Shown: positions 830-64,000, numbered from the stretch's first letter. The stretch: 64,000 bases of DNA from Paludibacteraceae bacterium (GCA_017559505.1 JAFYSF010000025.1:20637-84636), one strand, 5' to 3'. Numbers and translations: made by a program. Notes: generated by a model from the sequence alone, not told the origin.

Positions 830-880
830 AATCACAAAAAAAAGAAGCACCGAATTTTATCTCGGTGCCTCTTTTTTTTA
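830..880 (-). terminator. intrinsic terminator downstream of the 891-3044 gene
   Basis: 10-bp stem gaagcaccga/tcggtgcctc (1 mismatch), flanked by an A-run and a T-run. Confidence 0.7.
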
Positions 881-890
881 TCTACTAAAA

Positions 891-3044
891 TTAGTAACAA
901 ATTTGCTCTGCTAAACTGCGAAGTTCATAATTTGACTCTGTGCGATACAAAGATACTGCACGCATCACATTTTGTGTTTGAGTTTCCAACAAAGGAAGTT
1001 TAACTGCGTCATGAACCATGCGATTAGTTGTATTTGTTATCTTACCATGCACAACAGCAACAATTTCCATATTTTCAAACACACAATCAAAAGTACCTTT
1101 AGAACCACCAATCTTAGCAGGAACTTTATATGTATATGATTTAGAATAGCTACCTCCATCAAGTGTCATAAGTTCTCCAATTTGAGAAGTTAAGAACTTA
1201 CGTGGTGCATTGTTATGAGTATATGTTCCTGTTACCCCACTTTGACTTGCACTCAAACCACTTTGTGTCACTATTACAGTAACATAAACTTCATCTACTA
1301 TAGAATTTCCTTTAACTTCCACTGTCAATGTAGAATCTTCTACATTAAATGTACGATTAAGTTCGATAGTAGAAAGAGCTGGAGTCAAAAGGTTTTTTTC
1401 AAGGATTGCTGATGTAGCATAACCCGGGTGCCAAATAAGCACTGATTGACCTGCGCCATAATCACAAGCCATACGATTAATATTACACATAGGCGCAGCA
1501 TTAACACCAAGATAATCTGCAATATACAAACTTTCATTCAATGTAAATGCATCTGTACCATATGTATGGTGCGCAACCCACACTGCTTTACTTGGATCTT
1601 TCATGCCTGCAATTGCTGCAGCCATCGTTTTTGTTCCATTTGGACAGTTAGGACAACCTTGACCTGTAAACTGCTCTATATATACACTTTGACGTTCAAA
1701 CGCATCCGCAGAAAATACTGTAAAAATAAGATCTTCATCATTATTTGTAGACACAACGTCATCTGCATATTCAGCAACTATTTCAACCGCTACTTCTTTA
1801 AATGCACCCTCAATAGCTGGAGCAGAAAAACCATCAATGTTAACCATATAAGATTGTCCATTCAATAATCTATCTGAAACTGTAACTGTTTTTTCTTCAC
1901 CTCCAAGAGTACATTTAACCACTACATTTTCTGCTGGAGTAATACCTGCATTACGCAACTCACACGATACAACAACAGGATCGCCTACTTTAAGAGTTTG
2001 CGAAATAGCACCTCTTTCAAGAAGCACATCGTGTTGACGTTCTTTAGAATAATCTCCACCAACCATAATCGCTTGAATTGACCACACATATTTACCCAAT
2101 TGATTAGATACAAGGTCCCATCCGCTTTCTACATAAATCATCTCTGTTTTAGATGTTTTGCTTGATTTTTCGCAAGCCATAAAGTCCGTTGTACCTGTTG
2201 CAATATAACCAATATATGTATCTTGTTTGAAATCATACAATTCATCAAACATGATATATTGCCAACCTCCTTTTATATATGTAAATGTTTTTTCAATTTC
2301 TGGTTTTTGATAATCTGTACCAATAAACACTTTACCAGTTTTTACTTCATTTCCAACATAAACACGAATACCTGCAACATAGCAACCCGCATTAATCAAA
2401 TTTTCTACGCTCAACAATGTAGCTCCCCCGAATGTATGTGTTTTACCATCACCATAGCCAAAAACCAACGCATCATCCATACCTGATGATTTACAGTTAC
2501 CTAAAAGTTTCACCATCTCTTTGTCACCATCTTCAAGTTGTTTGCTTTGTTTATAAACAAATTTCACTGTAAATGTAACATCCAACGAATCTCGTCCATT
2601 TGTTACCATATACTCTGTTTCACAAACCGTTCTTACATTGTCATTCAATGCTTTCAAACGGAATGAAACATCACGAGTTTCTTTTGGAGCCACTTCTCCT
2701 AATTCCCAAATTTGTTCCGATGCTGAATTAGACTCAGCCAATAATACATCACCAACTACAACAGATGAAGTAAACTTATTAACATTAAATTTACGAGTTT
2801 CATAAATATCAAAGTTATTTTTCACTTCACCATTAATGATTTCTATTTCAGCCGACATTTCTTTTGATGCATCGTCATAATCATCCATTGTAACTACAAT
2901 AACATCATTAGATTTAACTGTTTTACCATTATACTTGATAGTATAAGACATATCACCGCCTTGTGTAATATGATCATCACAAGCAGCAAATGCTACAACT
3001 AACAACAAAGCAAATAATGCTTTAAACAAATTTTTTAAGTTCAT
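891..3044 (-). CDS. Omp28-related outer-membrane lipoprotein with long N-terminal extension
   Basis: 717-aa ORF with lipoprotein signal MNLKNLFKALFALLLVVAFAAC. The C-terminal half carries a thioredoxin-like FTGQGCPNCPNG motif, as in Omp28-family proteins. The N-terminal ~440 aa are unassigned. Confidence 0.5.
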   Translation of the reverse strand: MNLKNLFKALFALLLVVAFAACDDHITQGGDMSYTIKYNGKTVKSNDVIVVTMDDYDDASKEMSAEIEIINGEVKNNFDIYETRKFNVNKFTSSVVVGDVLLAESNSASEQIWELGEVAPKETRDVSFRLKALNDNVRTVCETEYMVTNGRDSLDVTFTVKFVYKQSKQLEDGDKEMVKLLGNCKSSGMDDALVFGYGDGKTHTFGGATLLSVENLINAGCYVAGIRVYVGNEVKTGKVFIGTDYQKPEIEKTFTYIKGGWQYIMFDELYDFKQDTYIGYIATGTTDFMACEKSSKTSKTEMIYVESGWDLVSNQLGKYVWSIQAIMVGGDYSKERQHDVLLERGAISQTLKVGDPVVVSCELRNAGITPAENVVVKCTLGGEEKTVTVSDRLLNGQSYMVNIDGFSAPAIEGAFKEVAVEIVAEYADDVVSTNNDEDLIFTVFSADAFERQSVYIEQFTGQGCPNCPNGTKTMAAAIAGMKDPSKAVWVAHHTYGTDAFTLNESLYIADYLGVNAAPMCNINRMACDYGAGQSVLIWHPGYATSAILEKNLLTPALSTIELNRTFNVEDSTLTVEVKGNSIVDEVYVTVIVTQSGLSASQSGVTGTYTHNNAPRKFLTSQIGELMTLDGGSYSKSYTYKVPAKIGGSKGTFDCVFENMEIVAVVHGKITNTTNRMVHDAVKLPLLETQTQNVMRAVSLYRTESNYELRSLAEQICY

Positions 3045-3099
3045 AAAACTAATTTTTTTAAGTTATTAGATAAAAGATTGAAAATTAATAATCAGACTG

Positions 3100-3107
3100 C
3101 AAAGGTA
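3100..3107 (-). promoter_or_regulatory. candidate -7 box (TACCTTTG on minus strand)
   Basis: Plus-strand CAAAGGTA, 56 nt upstream of the start at 3044. Confidence 0.45.
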
Positions 3108-3160
3108 ATATATTTTTTTTAATCTTACTACAAAAATAAAAAAAAAATGAATCAAACGGC

Positions 3161-4336
3161 CTATTTTAGCATTATACTTGCCCTATACACTGTATTTTCC
3201 GTCACAGGGCACAATGAAAAATATCCTTTTTTAAATCTTCCACCCTCTATTTCAATCGGATTTTCCTCTGTTTGCATATAATGATCACGCAACAATTCCC
3301 CTGGAGGACAATGATCTATCATAAACATCCCTTTAGCTCCTTTACACACACAACGATCATAAACCACTCTCGCCACCATACCCATAGTCATCCTTAAATT
3401 AAATTCTACCACTGGATTTATCTTATAATTTACATCATCTTGTGTATCCGAATAAACAAACATATCCACTCCCACAAATCCAGCATAATTTTTTGCCACT
3501 TTCTCACGCAAAAAGTCAGTTAATGTTTCACGTATCCAATTCAAATAATCAACAGACACCCACTTCGACAACTCTGCCTCGATATCTTCATTCGACAACA
3601 AATAATTTCCGCGATAAATTCCACTACCCTCAGTAAAAAACAACGAGTACCCTGCAAATGTAACATCTCCACGACCCACCTTAAACTCCATTGCAAAATC
3701 TTGTACCCTATTATAAGCCACCTCTCCCATTACAGAACCCTGCTTATCTATAACACGCTTACACCACCCCGAAAGACTCGGAGTCAACTGTCCTGAAGAC
3801 CAAAAAACACCCTTACCACTACCGCTCCAAGGAGCCTTAAAAACCACCTCTTCATATTTCGCAGCAAAAGCATTAACATCGGCCATCGCAACTAACTCTT
3901 CTGCCGATTTAGGCAACAAATTAGGATTAACTACTCTCTCTCTCAAATAATCCATCGCTTCAATAGTCAACCTACGGTGAGCCAATTGCTTATATTCATC
4001 TATCCTTTCTAATGTAGGCAACAATTTTTCTGCAACTCCATTATTCAAAAAAAACTTACGCACAGCCATATCCCACCCCCAAGGCTCAACCTTAAACTCT
4101 TCTATTTTATCTTTTGAAAACAATGGAATAGTCGCAACATCTAAACCCAACACATTCAAATCGTCCGTAAATTCCTGATCGCTCAACACCTCTGAAGCAA
4201 CCTCTTCCGCAAACCAACATGGTAGCAACGACAAATCCTCAGCAAAAGCAACTGCCGATTCTGGTGCTTGAAAATGAGCATTCCCATTTGCCAAAGCCAA
4301 ATCATGATCTGGATTAAAATAATATAACCTAGACAT
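3161..4336 (-). CDS. conserved hypothetical, ATP-grasp-like
   Basis: 391-aa ORF. VVFKAPWSGSGKGVFW and VGVDMF...INPVVEFNLRMTMG resemble ATP-grasp motifs. The exact family was not recognised. Confidence 0.4.
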   Translation of the reverse strand: MSRLYYFNPDHDLALANGNAHFQAPESAVAFAEDLSLLPCWFAEEVASEVLSDQEFTDDLNVLGLDVATIPLFSKDKIEEFKVEPWGWDMAVRKFFLNNGVAEKLLPTLERIDEYKQLAHRRLTIEAMDYLRERVVNPNLLPKSAEELVAMADVNAFAAKYEEVVFKAPWSGSGKGVFWSSGQLTPSLSGWCKRVIDKQGSVMGEVAYNRVQDFAMEFKVGRGDVTFAGYSLFFTEGSGIYRGNYLLSNEDIEAELSKWVSVDYLNWIRETLTDFLREKVAKNYAGFVGVDMFVYSDTQDDVNYKINPVVEFNLRMTMGMVARVVYDRCVCKGAKGMFMIDHCPPGELLRDHYMQTEENPIEIEGGRFKKGYFSLCPVTENTVYRASIMLK

Positions 4337-4423
4337 TTTTTAAAATTAAAATTTGAAAATCACAATTCGGTAAAGTAAACTCAATCTAAACAATACCGAG
4401 CACAAACAAAACAAAAAACTTGA

Positions 4424-4458
4424 AACTTTCACATTTCAACTTTAAACTTTCAACTTTA
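4424..4458. repeat. tandem heptamer array AACTTTM x5
   Basis: aactttc acatttc aacttta aactttc aacttta. Overlaps the sufE stop and encodes its last residues (LLKLKV). Confidence 0.85.
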
Positions 4459-4870
4459 AAAGTGCATATGCCTTCATCTTTTCAACCATCGACACAAGTC
4501 CATTACTACGTGTTGGCGACAAATGTTCTTTCAAACCTATTTTATCGAGGAATCCAAAATTATATTTTACAACCTCTTCTGCCGTACAACCCGACATCAT
4601 ATTTATCAAGAGCGCAACAATACCCTTTACTATTATCGCATCACTTTCTCCTCTAAAATACAATCTACCATCTTGCTCATCACACACCAACCACACCTGA
4701 CTCTGACAGCCTTTTATCAGTGTATCATCATTCTTTTCTTCTGCCGACAAACCTTCTAATTCTCCTCCCAAATCCACAAGATATTGGTAACGATCCATCC
4801 AATCCTCATAAACCTCAAATTCCTCAAGTAATTCAATCTCTTTTTCTTCTAATGTTTTCATATATTTCAA
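4442..4870 (-). CDS. sufE: SufE-family cysteine desulfuration protein
   Basis: 142 aa with the KGCQSQVW active-Cys loop and the SPTRSNGL motif. Confidence 0.85.
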   Translation of the reverse strand: MKYMKTLEEKEIELLEEFEVYEDWMDRYQYLVDLGGELEGLSAEEKNDDTLIKGCQSQVWLVCDEQDGRLYFRGESDAIIVKGIVALLINMMSGCTAEEVVKYNFGFLDKIGLKEHLSPTRSNGLVSMVEKMKAYALLKLKV

Positions 4871-4899
4871 ATACTATTTTTTATTTCTGATTACAACAA

Positions 4900-6084
4900 T
4901 TATTTTTTAATTCTATCAAATTCATCCCAAAAATTCGGATACGACTTATTTACCACCTCTGGGTTCTCTATTTCAATCTCTCTCATTAACCCTACAATCG
5001 ACATCGACATTGCTATACGATGGTCATTATACGCATTTATATATGGCACTTTTTCGCCTTCACCTCTCTCTCCCAACCAACAAATTTTACCCTTTTCATC
5101 ATATTTCAACGCATATCCACACTTACGCATTTCCGTCATCATCGCCCCTATTCTATCACTCTCCTTCACTCTCAACGTTTTCACACCACTTATCTCAAAT
5201 TCTACTCCCAACAAACATGCCACCACTACTATATACATCACAGCGTCTGGCATATTTTCACAATTCAGCTCTAATTTATTCACCTTGCATCCACTCCACT
5301 CTATTGCAACACCACCTTCTATCTCTTTAGTTTCAACCCCTAATCGTGCAAACACCTCCACCACCGCTCTATCAGGCTGAACGCTATCTAAACTCAATCC
5401 CAAAAATCTAAACTCCCCTCTTTTCAATACCGCCATCATAGCATACCACACCGTTGCCGACGACCAATCTTTCTCTCCACTATATCCTACACCTCTTCTA
5501 TATCTTTCTATCACACTATTTGTCAATCTAATATACGATTTCGAGGCCACATCTCCCTCATATTCTATCTCAATTCCACCCTCCACTCTGTCTGCAATCA
5601 ACATCAATGCCGATGCAAACTGACTACTCAACGACGCATCTAATCTCACTCGTCCGCCCCTCAATGCCTTACCTTTTATTTTCAATGGAGCAAATCCCTC
5701 TTTATCTACATAAGAAATATCTGCCCCCATTGCAAGCAAAACATCAACCAATGGCTTTATTGGTCGCTCACACAATCTTTTCGACCCAGTCAACACAAAT
5801 TCCCCCTCACTCACAGCACAATAAGCTGTCATAAACCGCAAAGCTGTCCCCGAATGATGCAAATCTAAATTCGTAATTGTGCATTGTGCATTGTGCATTG
5901 TGCACTGTTTCAACGCCCTCGACAACACAAATATATCATCATTCTCATCTTCAACCCCCACTTCTATTCCATTCAAAGCATCTAACACCAACTCCCTTGC
6001 CCTCACACTTTTCGACAAAGGCAAACCAATTGAGAACTTACCTTCTCCTGCATTATGAATTGTGAATTGTGAACCGTAGGTCAT
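4900..6084 (-). CDS. aroA: 3-phosphoshikimate 1-carboxyvinyltransferase (EPSP synthase)
   Basis: 394 aa with the motifs LPLSKSV, HSGTALRFMTAY, GSKRLCERPI and KESDR. Confidence 0.9.
   Translation of the reverse strand: MTYGSQFTIHNAGEGKFSIGLPLSKSVRARELVLDALNGIEVGVEDENDDIFVLSRALKQCTMHNAQCTITNLDLHHSGTALRFMTAYCAVSEGEFVLTGSKRLCERPIKPLVDVLLAMGADISYVDKEGFAPLKIKGKALRGGRVRLDASLSSQFASALMLIADRVEGGIEIEYEGDVASKSYIRLTNSVIERYRRGVGYSGEKDWSSATVWYAMMAVLKRGEFRFLGLSLDSVQPDRAVVEVFARLGVETKEIEGGVAIEWSGCKVNKLELNCENMPDAVMYIVVVACLLGVEFEISGVKTLRVKESDRIGAMMTEMRKCGYALKYDEKGKICWLGERGEGEKVPYINAYNDHRIAMSMSIVGLMREIEIENPEVVNKSYPNFWDEFDRIKK
5873..5907. repeat. tandem heptamer array TGCATTG x5 inside aroA
   Basis: gtaattg tgcattg tgcattg tgcattg tgcactg. 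On the coding strand it encodes QCTMHNAQCTITN. Confidence 0.9.
6051..6078. repeat. tandem heptamer array AATTGTG-type x4 at aroA 5' end
   Basis: cattatg aattgtg aattgtg aaccgta. Encodes the aroA N-terminus MTYGSQFTIHNA. Confidence 0.8.
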
Positions 6085-8416: not shown

Positions 8417-8517
8417 ACCCATTTACAGTGTGTATCAAAATCACAAATCTCTCCTTACCCTCAAGCAACCTTCAAGCAACCTTCACCGAAGAAGACTGAC
8501 ACACACTCTCATTGTGT
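8417..8517 (-). repeat. copy 1 of the GTGTCAGTCTTCTTCGRTGAAGGTTGCTTGAAGGTTGC element family (reverse orientation; full ~105-bp form)
   Basis: The reverse complement aligns along its length with 49840-49948. The core also occurs at 23676-23724 and 40460-40558. Confidence 0.85.
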
Positions 8518-23675: not shown

Positions 23676-23724
23676 GTGTCAGTCTTCTTCGATGAAGGTT
23701 GCTTGAAGGTTGCTATTGGGTAAA
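23676..23724 (+). repeat. copy 2 (core only) of the GTGTCAGTCTTCTTCGATGAAGGTTGCTTGAAGGTTGC element
   Basis: gtgtcagtcttcttcgatgaaggttgcttgaaggttgctattgggtaaag. Confidence 0.85.
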
Positions 23725-23759
23725 GAAAAGTATAATAGAGATTTTTTAATTTTTTTGAT

Positions 23760-31896: not shown

Positions 31897-31918
31897 GCGT
31901 TTTTGGATTTTGTAGATG

Positions 31919-31926
31919 CAAAGGTA
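31919..31926 (-). promoter_or_regulatory. candidate -7 box (TACCTTTG on minus strand) for the recQ-family gene
   Basis: Plus-strand CAAAGGTA, 23 nt upstream of the start at 31896. Confidence 0.45.
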
Positions 31927-31966
31927 GTAATTTTTTTTTGATTTTGAAATATATGTGCAGATTAGA

Positions 31967-32032
31967 TTATAGTATGTTTATAGTATATTTATCCTATATT
32001 TATAGTATATTTATGGTATATTTATAGTATAT
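31967..32032. repeat. 6 x 11-bp tandem array (TTATAGTATAT family), module copy A
   Basis: ttatagtatgt ttatagtatat ttatcctatat ttatagtatat ttatggtatat ttatagtatat. Paralogous to 62150-62215. Confidence 0.9.
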
Positions 32033-32123
32033 TGAAGGTATGAAGAGGATAGGGTGAGGGGAGGGGGGATTGTGTGTGTATTTATGGGGTGGTGGGGGTG
32101 GAGGGTGTAATGTGTTGGGTGTG
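32033..32123. repeat. G/T-rich low-complexity tail with G-runs, roughly 7-nt phased
   Basis: tgaaggt atgaaga ggatagg gtgaggg gaggggg ... ggggtggtgggggtggaggg. Confidence 0.6.
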
Positions 32124-32241
32124 ATTATTGTTTTGGGTTTAATTTATTGATTTTTAGGTTGATTTTTGTTGGATTTGAGGCGATGGTGTATTTTATTGTA
32201 AAATTGCATGAAAAATTGATAAAAAAAAGATAATTTTTTAT

Positions 32242-32249
32242 TAACTTTG
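32242..32249 (+). promoter_or_regulatory. candidate -7 box TAACTTTG
   Basis: 28 nt upstream of the ATG at 32277. Confidence 0.5.
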
Positions 32250-32276
32250 TAGTCGGAAAATTTTAACGTTTAATTT

Positions 32277-40459: not shown

Positions 40460-40558
40460 GTGTCAGTCTTCTTCGATGAAGGTTGCTTGAAGGTTGCTTA
40501 CAGATAAGGAAAGGTTTTATCTTATCCATCAGCAAAGTACAAGCAACCTTTAAGCAAG
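40460..40558 (+). repeat. copy 3 of the GTGTCAGTCTTC... element core, extended into a long hairpin
   Basis: The core is followed by a 15-bp stem (40485-40499 with 40541-55, one G-U pair) that encloses an inner gataag/cttatc hairpin. Confidence 0.8.
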
Positions 40559-46316: not shown

Positions 46317-46383
46317 CTTTTACCTTACTTCTCCATACCTTCTTCATAGGATAACCCTACCTTCAAAACAAATTCAACGCTAT

Positions 46384-49839: not shown

Positions 49840-49948
49840 ACACACAGTGAGTGGGTGTCAGTCTTCTTCGGTGAAGTTTGCTTGAAGGTTGCTTGAGAGG
49901 GTAGGAAGATATTTGGATTTTGAATATACACTGTGAATGGGTAGTCAG
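49840..49948 (+). repeat. copy 4 (full ~105-bp form) of the GTGTCAGTCTTC... element, with ~20-bp terminal direct repeats
   Basis: DR-L is acacagtgagtgggtgtcag (49842-61) and DR-R is acactgtgaatgggtagtcag (49928-48). The core is gtcttcttcggtgaagtttgcttgaaggttgcttgagagggtagg. Confidence 0.85.
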
Positions 49949-60874: not shown

Positions 60875-60908
60875 AAAAAAAAGAGGCTTATGAGCCTCTT
60901 TTTTTTAT
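60875..60908. terminator. bidirectional terminator between convergent genes
   Basis: Stem gaggct/agcctc with a 4-nt loop, flanked by A8 and T8 runs. Confidence 0.7.
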
Positions 60909-62035
60909 TTGTTATATCCGAAGATGTCTACTTCGATGATGTAGTTGGCTACGCCTTCGCCGTGAAGGTCGTTGACTTTAGAGTTGAAACGGTCGAGGTC
61001 GAAGTCGATAGTGAGGTTGCCGTCTTTAGGGAGATTGTGGATTTCGAGCCAATCTACTTTGAGAGGTAGGCCTGGTCCCCAGTTGGCACGGTCGTATTTG
61101 TAGGTGCCGGCTTGTTTGTAGGTGCTATCGTTTTCGTAGAAGATGTAGCCTTCATAGGTTTGTTTGCCATTGAGGATTACGCGGTAGAAGTTTTCGTCGA
61201 ATTCTGCTGCGTTGTTTGCGCGTTTGCCTTTGCCTGTTGTGCCACGGTCAGGGAATACGCCACGGTCGGCACCGTGTCCGCTGATGCTGACTTTCATGAG
61301 AAGTGATTTAACTTCTTGAGGTAGTTGTACGTTACGAATGCCTAAGCGTTCGATGTCTTCGATGTCGTTGCTACCGAGTGAGTCGGGAGATACGCCATAC
61401 GCCCATGAGCGATAGCCAATGTTGCTTGATGCGCGTGAGTCGTAGATTTTTTTGTAGAATATTGTTTCTTTGTCTTTTTTGCCTTCGTAGAAGTCGAATG
61501 TGAGTGTGACGGTGTGTGCTTTTTTGTCAGTTGCATCCCAGCCACCGTAGTAGATGTGGAATTCTACTTCGCCATTGAGCATTGGGAGGTATTCGGTGAT
61601 GTCCATGTAGTAGAGTTTTTCCCAATTGATGTCGAAATAGCCACCGTAAGGGGTGAATGCGCGTACGAGTTCGTAGAATTCGCCTGTGTGTGGGTTTTTG
61701 AGCATAATCATTGTGGTCATATCCCAATCAGCAGGTCCTTCGTTCCAACCTCCCATGCGATATGTGAGGATAGCGCGGTTGTATTGGTCGGTGGTTTCAG
61801 GGAATTTGACAGTGATTACAGAGTCTTCGTCGAGTCCCCAGCCGTAGAAATGGAGGCGTACGGCATCGGTTTTGACAGAGAAATCAGCTTCGGTGCCAGC
61901 CATGGGGTGTTCGTTGTACCATGCTGGGCGAGTGCTTTCGCGTGTGTAACATTTGTCGTTAGGAATTTCGGGATTGCATCCTACGAAAATAGCAGTTAGA
62001 ATTGCTAATGTGAATAGTTGTCTGAGTGTTTTCAT
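60905..62035 (-). CDS. lipoprotein, possibly peptide-N-glycosidase F-related
   Basis: 376 aa with lipobox IFVGC. ISGHGAD...NNAAEF...ILNGKQ resembles the PNGase F C-terminal domain pattern. This rests on recollection only and is not verified. Confidence 0.35.
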   Translation of the reverse strand: MKTLRQLFTLAILTAIFVGCNPEIPNDKCYTRESTRPAWYNEHPMAGTEADFSVKTDAVRLHFYGWGLDEDSVITVKFPETTDQYNRAILTYRMGGWNEGPADWDMTTMIMLKNPHTGEFYELVRAFTPYGGYFDINWEKLYYMDITEYLPMLNGEVEFHIYYGGWDATDKKAHTVTLTFDFYEGKKDKETIFYKKIYDSRASSNIGYRSWAYGVSPDSLGSNDIEDIERLGIRNVQLPQEVKSLLMKVSISGHGADRGVFPDRGTTGKGKRANNAAEFDENFYRVILNGKQTYEGYIFYENDSTYKQAGTYKYDRANWGPGLPLKVDWLEIHNLPKDGNLTIDFDLDRFNSKVNDLHGEGVANYIIEVDIFGYNK

Positions 62036-62087
62036 AGATTTTATTTGTTTAATTGTGTGTTAATTATTCGTTCAATTGTTTGGAATG

Positions 62088-62095
62088 CAAAGATA
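62088..62095 (-). promoter_or_regulatory. candidate -7 box (TATCTTTG on minus strand)
   Basis: Plus-strand CAAAGATA, 53 nt upstream of the start at 62035. Confidence 0.45.
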
Positions 62096-62149
62096 ATAAA
62101 AATTTGTAATATAGGGGCGAGTGTGTGTGTTTATTTTTTGCAGATAAGG

Positions 62150-62215
62150 TTATAGTATATTTATAGTATGTTTATAGTATATTTATCCTATATTTATGGT
62201 ATATTTATAGTATAT
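62150..62215. repeat. 6 x 11-bp tandem array (TTATAGTATAT family), module copy B
   Basis: ttatagtatat ttatagtatgt ttatagtatat ttatcctatat ttatggtatat ttatagtatat. Confidence 0.9.
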
Positions 62216-62299
62216 TGAAGGTAAGGAGAGGTTAGGGAGCAGGGAGTAGGAAATAAGGAGTAGGGAGCAGGGAGTTGAAGTGAGAGTTGAGGGATTTGT
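62216..62299. repeat. purine/G-rich tail made of 12 in-phase heptamers
   Basis: tgaaggt aaggaga ggttagg gagcagg gagtagg aaataag gagtagg gagcagg gagttga agtgaga gttgagg gatttgt. Confidence 0.8.
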
Positions 62300-62363
62300 A
62301 ATGGAAATGGATTTTATAAATTTGTTTTTTTGTTGTTTTATTGTAAGAGTTGTAATTTTTTAG

Positions 62364-62371
62364 TAACTTTG
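62364..62371 (+). promoter_or_regulatory. candidate -7 box TAACTTTG for metG
   Basis: 40 nt upstream of the ATG at 62411. Confidence 0.5.
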
Positions 62372-62410
62372 CAGTTTGATAGAAAAATAATCAGAAAACA
62401 AATAAAAAGA

Positions 62411-64000
62411 TATGAAAGATTTTAAACGTACGTTGGTTACTACGGCATTGCCGTATGCAAATGGTCCGGTGCATATTGGTCACTTGGCAGGTGTGTATGT
62501 CCCAGCAGATATTTATGTTAGATATTTGCGATTGAAGGGTGAAGAGGTGTTGTTTATTGGTGGTTCGGATGAGCACGGGGTGCCTATCACAATCAAGGCT
62601 AAGAAAGAGGGTGTTACGCCTCAAGATATTGTTGACCGTTATCATGGTATTATTAAAAAATCGTTTGAGGAGTTGGGTATTTCGTTTGATATTTATTCTC
62701 GTACTACTTCGAAGATTCACTATGAGACTGCGGCTGAATATTTCAAGAATTTGTATGAGAAAGGTGAGTTTGTGGAGAAAACTTCGGAACAATATTATGA
62801 TGAAGAGGCTGGTCAATTCTTGGCAGACCGCTATATTACAGGTACTTGCCCTCATTGTAAGAATCCTAATGCATACGGTGACCAATGTGAGGCTTGCGGT
62901 ACGAGCTTGAGTCCGCTTGATTTGATTGATCCAAAATCGGCTATTTCGGGTTCGAAACCTGTGTTGCGTGAAACAAAACACTGGTATTTGCCATTGGATA
63001 AACATGAAGAGTGGCTTCGTCAGTGGATTTTGGAAGACCACAAGGAGTGGAAGACTAATGTGTATGGTCAATGTAAGTCGTGGATTGACATGGGCTTGCA
63101 ACCACGTGCGGTGAGTCGTGACTTGGATTGGGGTGTGCCAGTGCCAGTGGAGGGAGCTGATGGTAAGGTGTTGTATGTGTGGTGTGATGCGCCAATTGGT
63201 TATATATCAAATACTAAGGAGTTGTTGCCAAACGATTGGGAAAAATGGTGGAAAGATCAATCTACTCGTATGCTTCACTTTATTGGTAAAGATAATATTG
63301 TGTTCCACTGCATTGTGTTCCCAGCGATGTTGAAAGCTGATGGTTCTTATATTTTGCCAGACAATGTGCCTGCAAATGAGTTCCTTAACCTTGAAGGTGA
63401 CAAGATTTCTACTTCACGTAACTGGGCTGTTTGGTTGCACGAATATTTGGTGGAATTCCCAGGTAAACAGGATGTGTTGCGCTATGTGTTGACAGCTAAT
63501 GCGCCTGAGACTAAGGATAATGACTTCACATGGAAAGATTTCCAAACAAGAAATAATAGCGAGTTGGTGGCTATCTTTGGTAACTTTATCAATCGCGCTT
63601 TGGTGTTGACTCACAAATATTTTGACGGTGTGGTGCCTGCTTTGGGCGAATTGACTGACTATGACCGCGAAACATTGAAAGAGTTTGCTGATGTTAAAGC
63701 TGATGTAGAGTCGTACCTTGATAACTTCCGTTTCCGCGATGCACAGAAAGAGGCTATGAACTTGGCACGTATTGGTAATAAATATCTTGCTGATACAGAG
63801 CCTTGGAAGTTGGCTAAAACAGATATGGAGCGTACGGCTACTATCTTGCATATTGGATTGCAAATTGCGGCTAACTTGGCTATTGCATTCGAGCCATTCT
63901 TGCCATTCTCGGCTAAAAAATTGCGTGATATGTTGGGTATGGAGTCGTTTGCATGGAACGATCTTGGTAGCATCGAACTCTTGAAAGAGGGTGCAAAACT
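62411..64000 (+). CDS. metG: methionine--tRNA ligase, N-terminal 530 codons (runs off window end)
   Basis: Absent from the ORF track (no stop in window). Hand translation gives [60 protein letters not shown], including the HIGH motif. Confidence 0.95.

What the first reader, a model, noticed from the sequence alone, without database searches (positions are those of the whole stretch)
62150..62299. Repeat module B: second copy of the 11-bp array with a different tail, again in a divergent promoter region
The same six 11-bp units occur here, but their order is permuted relative to copy A. The same TGAAGGTA junction follows. The tail differs: 12 in-phase purine-rich heptamers (GAGCAGG, GAGTAGG ...) that contain TTAGGG-like and GGGAG runs.

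The module lies between the divergent lipoprotein gene (start 62035) and metG (62411), in the same orientation and a similar position as copy A. The array is conserved while the tail has diverged, which suggests the array is the functional or mobile part.
Basis: seen in the sequence. Interest (0 to 1): 0.6.

Follow-up and report, generated by a model that had tools for sequence, protein, structure and literature searches.

The report
Dispersed 11-bp phased intergenic repeat element
Module B is one copy of an undescribed ~99-bp non-coding repeat (about nine helically phased 11-bp units) that is scattered through promoter-bearing gene spacers of uncultured gut Paludibacteraceae (Candidatus Aphodosoma), changes fast between strains, and is not a switch specific to metG or its neighbour.

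Summary
The array is real: six 11-bp units (TTATNNTATRT) lie at 62150-62215. Their unit set is the same as in copy A (31967-32032) in a different order, and the same TGAAGGTA junction follows.

A profile built only from copies in other genomes sets the boundaries at 62139-62237: one G-rich junction unit, six AT-rich core units, then two G-rich junction units, all in 11-bp phase. The heptamer tail lies outside the family element.

More than 100 copies were found in eight or more Candidatus Aphodosoma/Paludibacteraceae MAGs (the scan was cut off). Copy number peaks at six units. Copies lie in either orientation, mostly 20-100 bp upstream of Bacteroidota -7 promoter boxes, and 57% are in divergent spacers.

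There are no terminal inverted repeats, no target duplication, no hairpin and no Rfam match.

Between strains of this species the flanks are almost identical (0-3 differences) but the element differs at up to 12 of 88 positions. It has 6 or 7 units, alternative heptamer tails, or a MITE-like insert just after the last junction unit. A close relative (MetG 98% identical) has a 142-bp spacer without the element.

Unit usage is genome-specific, and synteny breakpoints fall on arrays. Best reading: a recombination- and slippage-driven dispersed repeat in the style of BrickBuilt, BOX or MIRU.

The parts
62139..62149 (+). Left junction unit (TGCAGATAAGG), family consensus TGnAGRTWnnn
   Evidence: Logo of 105 copies: conservation starts at -11. 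The nhmmer profile of 55 foreign copies aligns from 62139/62140.
62150..62215 (+). Core array: six 11-bp units TTATNNTATRT (AGa AGg AGa CCa GGa AGa)
   Evidence: TRF, pattern search, unit table. Third least stable 66-bp duplex segment of the window (overlapping windows merged; raw rank 10 of 63,934) and highest TpA density, 21 steps.
62216..62237 (+). Two right junction units (TGAAGGTAAGG AGAGGTTAGGG), family consensus TGTAGnTAGGG AGAGGTTAGGG; this is the end of the family element
   Evidence: Logo: conservation ends at +22. The profile match ends at 62236/62237. In other strains and other copies a MITE-like insert starts exactly after this point.
62233..62287 (+). Purine-rich heptamer / 28-bp repeat tail; a local add-on, not part of the family element
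   Evidence: TRF: period 7 (6.1 copies, 72%) and period 28 (2 copies, 82%). Differs between strains. Three or more heptamers occur in only 11 of 105 copies.
62088..62095 (-). Bacteroidota-type -7 promoter box (TATCTTTG on the minus strand) of the lipoprotein gene, 43 bp from the element
   Evidence: Read from the sequence. Motif TAnnTTTG from own knowledge of Bacteroides promoters. Family-wide box distances.
62364..62371 (+). -7 promoter box (TAACTTTG) of metG, 126 bp after the element
   Evidence: Read from the sequence. This segment is invariant in all strains and conserved in relatives.
60905..62035 (-). Left neighbour: lipoprotein gene, weakly PNGase F-like
   Evidence: ORF. Pfam N-glycanase_C/N hits below the cut-off.
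62412..64000 (+). Right neighbour: metG (methionine-tRNA ligase), runs off the window
   Evidence: ORF. Pfam domains of the full-length gene in L108 and source names.
31956..32054 (+). Copy A of the same element (recQ / Na-Pi cotransporter spacer)
   Evidence: nhmmer E = 4e-20; alignment with B.
46322..46365 (-). Minimal relative: junction unit + one core-like unit (TTATCCTATGA) + two junction-like units
   Evidence: Relaxed search for the right module; sequence read.

Best explanation
**What it is.** Module B (62139-62237) is one copy of a lineage-restricted, non-coding, non-autonomous dispersed repeat family of Candidatus Aphodosoma/Paludibacteraceae. It has about nine 11-bp units in one helical phase: a G-rich junction unit, about six AT-rich core units (TTATNNTATRT), then two G-rich junction units.

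**How it acts.** It acts, if at all, as DNA and not as RNA or protein. The core is the most easily melted and most TpA-rich DNA of the region. It sits in the tolerant zone upstream of promoters.

**How it evolves (inferred).**
- Replication slippage changes the unit number (range 3-11, 6 versus 7 at this locus).
- Conversion or recombination among units and among the roughly 100 genomic copies reshuffles the centre dinucleotides while restoring the shared frame. This also makes unit usage genome-specific and produces rearrangement breakpoints.
- The G-rich right end seeds heptamer tails and attracts a MITE-like element.

**What it is not.** It is not a regulatory switch specific to metG or the lipoprotein gene.

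**Shown versus inferred.** Shown: family membership, boundaries, distribution, strain variability and absence in a close relative. Inferred: slippage and conversion as the drivers, and the DNA-level (melting or flexibility) property as the only likely local effect. How new copies reach new spacers is unknown.
For: **Family and boundaries**
- Logos are conserved only from -11 to +22.
- A profile of 55 foreign copies hits the window only at 62140-62236 (E = 1.3e-21) and 31957-32053.
- Unit number: 6 in 58 of 105 copies, 5 in 22, 7 in 11.

**Copy number**
- Array depth is 80-330 times that of the flanks in DNA metagenomes, and contigs break at the array.

**Context**
- 46 copies in divergent spacers, 19 and 13 in co-directional spacers, 3 in convergent spacers. 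Divergent spacers make up about 16% and convergent about 14% of all spacers.
- Promoter boxes lie mostly 20-100 bp outside the element on the promoter-bearing side(s).

**Not RNA and not a transposon-like structure**
- No Rfam hit.
- Fold z-scores are +1.5, -0.8 and -0.2.
- No terminal inverted repeats.
- Left and right junction units are no more alike within a copy than between copies: 5.72 versus 5.57 identities, with 258 of 2000 shuffles at least as high.

**Fast change at this locus within the species**
- Flanks differ at 0-3 of 133 and 0 of 119 positions; the element differs at up to 12 of 88.
- There are 6 or 7 units, and the tail is 85-86 nt, 212-213 nt (with the MITE-like insert) or longer.

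**Dispensable**
- A lineage with 98% identical MetG has a 142-bp spacer without the element. Another lineage has two core units plus the insert.

**Concerted evolution and recombination**
- Unit-type usage differs by genome: chi-square 108, P = 9e-16.
- Synteny between species breaks exactly at arrays in two cases.
- Arrays at orthologous sites keep their frame and length but differ in unit content.

**Physical property**
- The two arrays are the second and third least stable 66-bp duplex segments of the 64-kb window (overlapping windows merged; raw ranks 9 and 10 of 63,934), with 21 TpA steps against a mean of 5.4.
Against: - No insertion event with clean boundaries was seen, so mobility is inferred from dispersal alone.
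- Several features could reflect selection for a function rather than conversion: the strict conservation of the frame TTAT..TAT.T, the sharp mode of six units, and retention at orthologous sites in species whose flanks are only 70-90% identical.
- The whole spacer, not only the element, is C-poor on the element's strand: 3% C, GC skew +0.75. The model does not explain this.
- Strain alleles come from short-read metagenome assemblies, which may mis-join repeat arrays.
Confidence: 0.6

Rival explanations
1. Docking platform. The six phased 11-bp units are binding sites on one face of the helix for a lineage-specific DNA-binding protein. This could be a nucleoid-associated protein or a winged-helix regulator of the OmpR/PhoB type, which binds 10-11-bp direct repeats. 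Selection would then keep about 100 such platforms upstream of promoters.
For: - Eight of the 11 unit positions are nearly invariant, while positions 5, 6 and 10 vary freely.
- The mode of six units is kept in orthologous copies whose unit content has changed.
- Copies are retained at the same spacers in species with 70-90% flank identity.
- Placement is 20-100 bp upstream of -7 boxes, and convergent spacers are depleted.
- Ordinary slippage arrays with the same frame in giant-virus contigs have uniform units, unlike these.
Against: - The element is absent from the same spacer in a close relative, and reduced to two units in another.
- Copies occur in either orientation at variable distances.
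- It is hypervariable within the species, and a MITE-like insert next to it is tolerated.
- Neighbouring genes are unrelated housekeeping genes.
- Conversion among copies would also preserve the frame.
Confidence: 0.2
2. Structural DNA element. The AT core is a stress-induced melting (unwinding) tract, flanked by a G-rich, C-free strand. It would absorb or transmit the negative supercoils made between divergent promoters, coupling or insulating them.
For: - The arrays are among the least stable duplex segments of the window and have the highest TpA density.
- 57% of copies lie between divergent promoters.
- The 11-bp unit keeps the helical phase when the unit number changes.
- The element's strand is C-poor over more than 100 bp on both sides, whatever the gene orientation.
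Against: - 35 of 81 classified copies are not in divergent spacers.
- The element is absent in a close relative at this spacer.
- A G-quadruplex motif is present in only 9 of 105 right flanks.
- There are no experimental data.
Confidence: 0.1
3. Landing pad or end-associated sequence of a transposon. The element would exist because a transposase recognises it, either as the preferred target or as a sub-terminal part of the MITE-like element with 24-bp inverted ends (GGTTCTTCGTCAGTTTAGTTGAAA).
For: - 19 of 105 copies, and six of the ten strain alleles that span the array at this locus, have this insert starting right after the last junction unit, always with the same end adjacent. The interiors are of at least three different kinds.
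- In one allele the element's last junction unit and heptamer tail resume after the insert (L114).
Against: - 81% of copies have no insert.
- No second array lies at the other end of the insert.
- No consistent target duplication was found.
- No full-length insertion sequence with these ends was seen in about 700 kb of loci.
Confidence: 0.06
4. Locally generated microsatellite, or a small RNA gene. On this reading the array arose in place by slippage, or it encodes a transcript with a function of its own.
For: - The unit number changes by one between strains.
- A few array-bearing contigs appear in metatranscriptome runs.
Against: - All copies share junction units and heterogeneous but shared unit types at unrelated loci and in several species.
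- The right module never occurs without an array at four or fewer mismatches.
- There is no Rfam match and no structure on either strand.
- The element lies upstream of both promoter boxes.
- The RNA-run signal is small and cannot be told from DNA carry-over.
Confidence: 0.04

Closest known systems
BrickBuilt minisatellite-MITE of Porphyromonas gingivalis (Klein et al. 2015, PMC4596501)
   Same: - Host is also in the Bacteroidales.
- Modular leader - tandem repeats - tail architecture.
- Imperfect units with conserved and variable positions.
- Always intergenic, tens to hundreds of bp from genes; dispersed and lineage-restricted.
- Unit number varies between copies (compared).
   Different: - BrickBuilt has 23-nt units (1 to 22.8 per copy), long leader and tail (up to 285 and 318 nt) that end in 12-bp IS5-like terminal inverted repeats, 19 copies per genome, and promoter activity of its own.
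- Here the units are 11 nt with a sharp mode of six, and the flanking modules are only 11 and 22 nt, themselves in the 11-bp phase.
- No terminal inverted repeats were found.
- Copy number appears several-fold higher.
BOX elements of Streptococcus pneumoniae (boxA-(boxB)n-boxC) (own knowledge)
   Same: - Three-part modular repeat with a variable number of central units.
- About 100 or more intergenic copies, often near promoters.
- No known transposase, and effects on neighbouring genes are at most modulatory.
   Different: - BOX modules are 59, 45 and 50 bp and can form stable hairpins.
- This element has 11-bp units and no structure potential.
- No sequence relationship was tested.
MIRU / dispersed minisatellites of Mycobacterium tuberculosis (own knowledge)
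   Same: Dispersed loci of tandem repeats in intergenic DNA, with strain-variable unit number and units shared between loci.
   Different: - MIRU units are 46-100 bp, lie mostly inside operons and can carry small ORFs.
- Here the units are one helical turn long, have defined junction modules, and lie upstream of promoters.
Cyanobacterial STRR heptamers and prokaryotic long simple-sequence repeats of 5-11 nt
   Same: - The heptamer tail (62233-62287) and the many other heptamer arrays of this window are of this kind.
- They are strain-variable and intergenic.
   Different: - The 11-bp core is not a plain simple-sequence repeat.
- Its units are heterogeneous but drawn from a shared set, and they are bounded by conserved junction units at every locus.
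- Plain 11-bp arrays with the same frame in giant-virus contigs have uniform units.
Direct-repeat binding arrays of OmpR/PhoB-family regulators (pho boxes; own knowledge)
   Same: Direct repeats with an 11-bp period, part conserved and part free in each unit, several in a row upstream of promoters. This is a resemblance in how it could work.
   Different: - Pho boxes number two to six per regulated promoter, at fixed distance and orientation, in a defined regulon.
- Here there are about 100 copies at unrelated genes, in either orientation, variably present between strains.
- No binding protein is known.

Membership tests
Aphodosoma/Paludibacteraceae 11-bp phased intergenic element (undescribed; defined here) | Junction unit + n core units TTATNNTATRT + two junction units, recognised by a profile built from other genomes | tested here: met
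   nhmmer profile of 55 foreign six-unit copies: 62140-62236, E = 1.3e-21, model positions 2-98 of 99.
Aphodosoma/Paludibacteraceae 11-bp phased intergenic element (undescribed; defined here) | Lies in a promoter-bearing spacer, outside the -7 boxes | tested here: met
   Boxes at 62088-62095 (-) and 62364-62371 (+) flank the element. Family pattern.
MITE (including BrickBuilt) | Terminal inverted repeats | tested here: not met
   No conserved positions beyond -11 and +22, and the two ends are direct rather than inverted relatives. The only inverted pairs in the spacer are the two promoters and T/A-rich runs.
MITE (including BrickBuilt) | Target-site duplication | tested here: not met
   Left and right junction units are no more alike within a copy than between copies.
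MITE (including BrickBuilt) | Short, AT-rich, non-coding, multi-copy, tandem repeats between leader and tail | tested here: met
   paper features.
REP / BIME / ERIC-type palindromic repeats | Imperfect palindrome able to form a stem-loop | tested here: not met
   RNA fold z = +1.5 and -0.8; DNA fold z = -0.2.
BOX elements | A-(B)n-C modular build with a variable central number | tested here: met
   Architecture only.
BOX elements | Sequence homology to boxA, boxB and boxC | not tested
   No reference sequence was at hand; host phylum and unit size differ.
Simple-sequence (slippage) tandem repeat | Uniform units, no conserved flanks, locus-specific origin | tested here: not met
   Units are heterogeneous but shared, with conserved junctions at more than 100 loci. 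This contrasts with uniform arrays in viral contigs. The heptamer tail alone does fit this kind.
   Similarity between A and B ends a few bases outside the element.
Known structured RNA (Rfam) | Match to a covariance model | tested here: not met
   0 matches at E up to 1 in 61950-62500.
OmpR/PhoB-type binding array | Phased 10-11-bp direct repeats | tested here: met
   Period 11, six units.
OmpR/PhoB-type binding array | Bound by a cognate regulator; fixed position in a regulon | not testable with these tools
   No binding data. Variable position and orientation argue against a classical regulon.

The most novel reading that the evidence does not exclude
The phased arrays are selected docking platforms for a lineage-specific DNA-binding protein. 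About 100 portable six-site cassettes sit upstream of promoters. Their frame (TTAT..TAT.T) and length (66 bp) are kept by selection while the centres are free. The platforms also act as recombination and insertion hot spots that let promoter regions diversify between strains.
Probability: 0.2. Interest if true: 0.7.

Novelty: new member of a known kind. Interest (0 to 1): 0.4.

Why it matters
Dispersed intergenic repeats are well studied in Proteobacteria, streptococci and mycobacteria but hardly at all in gut Bacteroidales.

This family is unusual in three ways:
- It is built entirely of one-helical-turn units.
- It has a conserved frame and free centre positions.
- It has no palindromes or inverted ends.

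It marks hypervariable islands inside otherwise identical promoter spacers of one species. It breaks short-read assemblies, which matters for MAG quality. It coincides with rearrangement breakpoints and attracts a MITE-like insert.

If the arrays bind a protein, they would define a new genome-wide layer of promoter-upstream organisation in an abundant, uncultured group of ruminant-gut bacteria. If not, they are a clean case for studying concerted evolution of short repeats.

Tried and rejected
- **Own genome.** No census or replication-strand test of the window's own genome was possible, and it was not among the loci returned by the cut-off scan.
- **Structured RNA.** No Rfam match and no excess folding.
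- **Hairpin or cruciform DNA.** None.
- **Terminal inverted repeats.** Only the two promoters pair up, and they also exist in the relative without the element.
- **Target duplication.** None.
- **G-quadruplex tail as a family feature.** Only 9 of 105 copies.
- **Fixed distance rule from gene starts.** Rejected.
- **Phage or viral carriage.** 57 viral hits, all uniform AT arrays, mostly in giant-virus MAGs (GVMAG) contigs, none with junction units.
- **Transcription.** Metatranscriptome contigs hold a few arrays from other loci, and a run labelled RNA has the same array-to-gene depth ratio as DNA runs, so this is inconclusive.
- **Strain alleles of copy A.** Contigs break in the array or G-runs, and one is chimeric, so this was uninformative.
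- **Orthologous spacers in the eight MAGs.** None of the fetched loci holds metG or recQ.
- **Presence/absence pairs among the fetched loci.** None, because all loci were selected for having arrays.
- **Literature.** Nothing on repeats in Aphodosoma.

Full report
**Observation.** The region 62150-62215 consists of six 11-bp units of the form TTATNNTATRT. TRF gives period 11, 6.1 copies and 87% matches, with an identical result for 31967-32033. A two-unit pattern with up to three mismatches matches only these two arrays in the 64-kb window, 10 matches against 0.00 expected.

Written as centre dinucleotide plus base 10, copy A is AGg AGa CCa AGa GGa AGa and copy B is AGa AGg AGa CCa GGa AGa. This is the same set of units in another order. 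GTATATTGAAGGTA follows both arrays and occurs nowhere else exactly.

The module lies between a minus-strand lipoprotein gene (60905-62035) and metG (ATG at 62412). Bacteroidota-type -7 boxes (TAnnTTTG, own knowledge) lie at 62088-62095 on the minus strand and 62364-62371 on the plus strand. The module is therefore upstream of both promoters.

**Boundaries and family.** Of these, 102 are from eight MAGs named Candidatus Aphodosoma sp. or Paludibacteraceae bacterium. Five are chance AT-rich hits in other taxa.

I extracted 105 copies, including the window's two.
- Unit number is 6 in 58 copies, 5 in 22 and 7 in 11, with a range of 3-11.
- Position logos show conservation from -11 (TGnAGRTWnnn) through the array to +22 (TGTAGnTAGGG AGAGGTTAGGG), and none beyond.
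- The element is therefore about 99 bp: nine units in one 11-bp phase, AT-rich in the middle and G-rich at the edges.
- A profile HMM built from 55 six-unit copies of other genomes hits the window at exactly two places: 62140-62236 (E = 1.3e-21) and 31957-32053 (E = 4e-20).
The heptamers after them do not.
- Only 11 of 105 copies carry three or more near-identical heptamers, and the types differ (GGGAGTA, GAGAGTT, GGGGAAT).
- At four or fewer mismatches the right module never occurs without an array. Looser matching finds array-less relatives.

**Copy number.** In three DNA gut metagenomes that hold this locus, summed contig depth over the array is 860-5400, against 9-21 for the flanks. Contigs end in the array. 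Part of this depth comes from related species. Even so, the order of magnitude, together with 33 or more copies in one MAG in a cut-off scan, indicates on the order of 100 copies per genome.

**Context.** Of 81 copies with called genes on both sides:
- 46 lie in divergent spacers;
- 19 lie in co-directional spacers pointing with the genes, and 13 pointing against;
- 3 lie in convergent spacers.

Divergent spacers are about 16% and convergent about 14% of all spacers in the same loci. The nearest -7 box lies mostly 20-100 bp outside the element, on whichever side bears a promoter. Distances to gene starts range from about 20 to 900 bp.

**What it is not.**
- No Rfam family matches.
- Neither strand folds better than shuffles as RNA (z = +1.5 and -0.8), nor does the element as DNA (z = -0.2).
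- The only inverted pairs in the spacer are the two promoters, which also exist in a relative without the element, and T/A runs.
- The left and right junction units are no more alike within a copy than between copies, so they are not a target duplication.
- A and B share no flanks.
- Viral contigs hold only uniform AT arrays, mostly from giant-virus MAGs (GVMAG contigs), without junction units. This also shows what ordinary slippage arrays of this frame look like.

**Variation at this locus.** I fetched ten contigs encoding the identical lipoprotein. Among seven complete spacers:
- the left flank differs at 0-3 of 133 positions and the right flank at 0 of 119;
- the array plus right junction units differs at up to 12 of 88 positions, all at unit positions 5, 6 and 10 or in the junction units;
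- one allele has seven units;
- the stretch after the element is 85-86 nt (two heptamer versions), 212-213 nt, or longer.

The long alleles carry a MITE-like insert with 24-bp inverted ends (GGTTCTTYGTCA..TTAGTTGAAA) that starts right after the last junction unit.

In a lineage whose MetG is 98% identical, the spacer is 142 bp. It holds two promoters and heptamers but no element. In another lineage (97%) it holds two core units, one junction unit and the insert.

The element is therefore dispensable for metG and recently gained, lost or remodelled. One caveat applies: the lipoprotein orthologue in the 98% lineage is only 65% identical, so the left half of the region may have been exchanged as a block. 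A second caveat is that the alleles come from short-read assemblies.

**Family dynamics.**
- Arrays at orthologous spacers of different species (flank identity 70-93%) keep their frame and about six units, but differ in unit content.
- Unit-type usage is genome-specific. For example, GG units are 23% in one MAG and 2-5% in the others (chi-square 108, P = 9e-16).
- The window's two copies share the rare TGAAGG junction and an unusual last unit.
- In two cases synteny between species breaks exactly at arrays. One flank continues in one locus and the other flank in another.
- There is weak positional structure. The first unit is AG in 70% of copies, CC peaks at units 3-4, and the last unit ends in G in 80%.

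Together these results fit concerted evolution by conversion and recombination among copies, plus slippage.

**Physical properties.**
- The two arrays are the second and third least stable 66-bp duplex segments of the window once overlapping windows are merged (raw ranks 9 and 10 of 63,934). They have 21 TpA steps against a mean of 5.4.
- The whole spacers that carry them have 3% C and GC skew +0.75 to +0.82 on the element's strand, unlike the other long spacers of the window (only three short 67-108-bp spacers reach |0.5|-|0.75|).
- Family-wide, C is 5-10% for about 100 bp on either side in the three main context classes, whatever the gene orientation.
- I have no tested explanation for this asymmetry.

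**Interpretation.** The best-supported reading is a lineage-specific dispersed intergenic repeat. It is tolerated upstream of promoters and evolves by slippage and ectopic exchange. It secondarily serves as a seed for heptamer arrays and as a landing site for a MITE-like element.

The closest described analogue is BrickBuilt of Porphyromonas gingivalis, which has a leader, 23-nt tandem repeats and a tail, is intergenic, and has 19 copies. BrickBuilt, however, has long flanks ending in IS5-like inverted repeats, which this element lacks. BOX and MIRU elements are similar in build or behaviour.

The main rival reading is a selected protein-docking or DNA-melting tract. It is favoured by the conserved frame, the fixed length and the retention at orthologous sites. 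It is disfavoured by strain-level presence/absence, free orientation and the unrelated neighbouring genes. It cannot be excluded with sequence data alone.

How copies reach new spacers remains unknown.

**RNA evidence.** Metatranscriptome contigs contain a few arrays from other loci. One contig recurs in three runs, but nothing from this spacer appears. A run labelled RNA shows the same array-to-gene depth ratio as DNA runs. This neither shows nor excludes transcription.

**Verdict.** A gene-specific or position-specific role is not supported. This is a new family of a known kind of element, of moderate interest.

Noticed in passing
L109, L111, L112, L114-L116 (alleles of window 62238 onward); L011, L062, L063, L067, L077, L093 and others: A MITE-like element of about 190-450 bp has 24-bp inverted ends (GGTTCTTCGTCAGTTTAGTTGAAA, each holding a small TCAAC..GTTGA palindrome) and at least three different interiors. 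It starts right after the last junction unit in 19 of 105 copies, always with the same end next to the array. No consistent target duplication and no full-length parent were seen.
   Followed up: partly
window 8417-8517 (-), 23676-23736, 40460-40520, 49855-49915; L009, L059, L071: The repeat family GTGTCAGTCTTCTTCG..TGAAGGTTGCT TGAAGGTTGCT is followed directly by TGAGGGTAAGG AGAG.. . It is built from the same junction-type 11-mers as module B but has no AT core units. It looks like an array-less relative.
   Followed up: partly
window 46322-46365 (-): A minimal relative sits in a 67-bp co-directional spacer: TGAAGGTAGGG + one core-like unit (TTATCCTATGA) + AGAAGGTATGG AGAAGTAAGGT. The spacer is strongly C-rich on the plus strand, which fits the inverted orientation.
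   Followed up: partly
window 62036-62411 and 31897-32276: Both element-bearing spacers have only 3% C and GC skew +0.75 to +0.82 over their full 376-380 bp, unlike the other long spacers of the window (only three short 67-108-bp spacers reach |0.5|-|0.75|). Family-wide, the C-poor strand follows the element's orientation rather than the genes'. This is unexplained.
   Followed up: partly
L026/L038/L068/L073 and L066/L103/L080/L104: Synteny between Aphodosoma species breaks exactly at 11-bp arrays. The left flank is shared with one locus and the right flank with another, as expected if dispersed copies recombine.
   Followed up: partly
window 60905-62035 (-) versus L118:180-1358: The lipoprotein (weak PNGase F-like Pfam hits below the cut-off) is only 65% identical to its positional counterpart in a lineage whose adjacent MetG is 98% identical. 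The gene is either evolving very fast or was replaced.
   Followed up: partly
L118-L127, metG leader (about 60 nt before the ATG): In the lineage without the element, the metG 5' leader carries four AATGCAT heptamers and the promoter-upstream part carries TATAATTCATAATT repeats. The window's metG leader has neither. Heptamer arrays in leaders thus also differ between close relatives.
   Followed up: no
L132:1-410: A contig holding the Na/Pi cotransporter gene joins GC-rich, unrelated DNA to the G-run tail of module A. This is probably an assembly chimera at the G-runs.
   Followed up: no
L128:1075-1100: In the two-unit form of the metG spacer, the left junction is preceded by a small hairpin followed by a T-run (AACAAC TACG GTTGTT GATTTTTGCT). 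Some other copies (for example L007) also have a hairpin plus T-rich stretch just before a ..TTGCT left junction.
   Followed up: no
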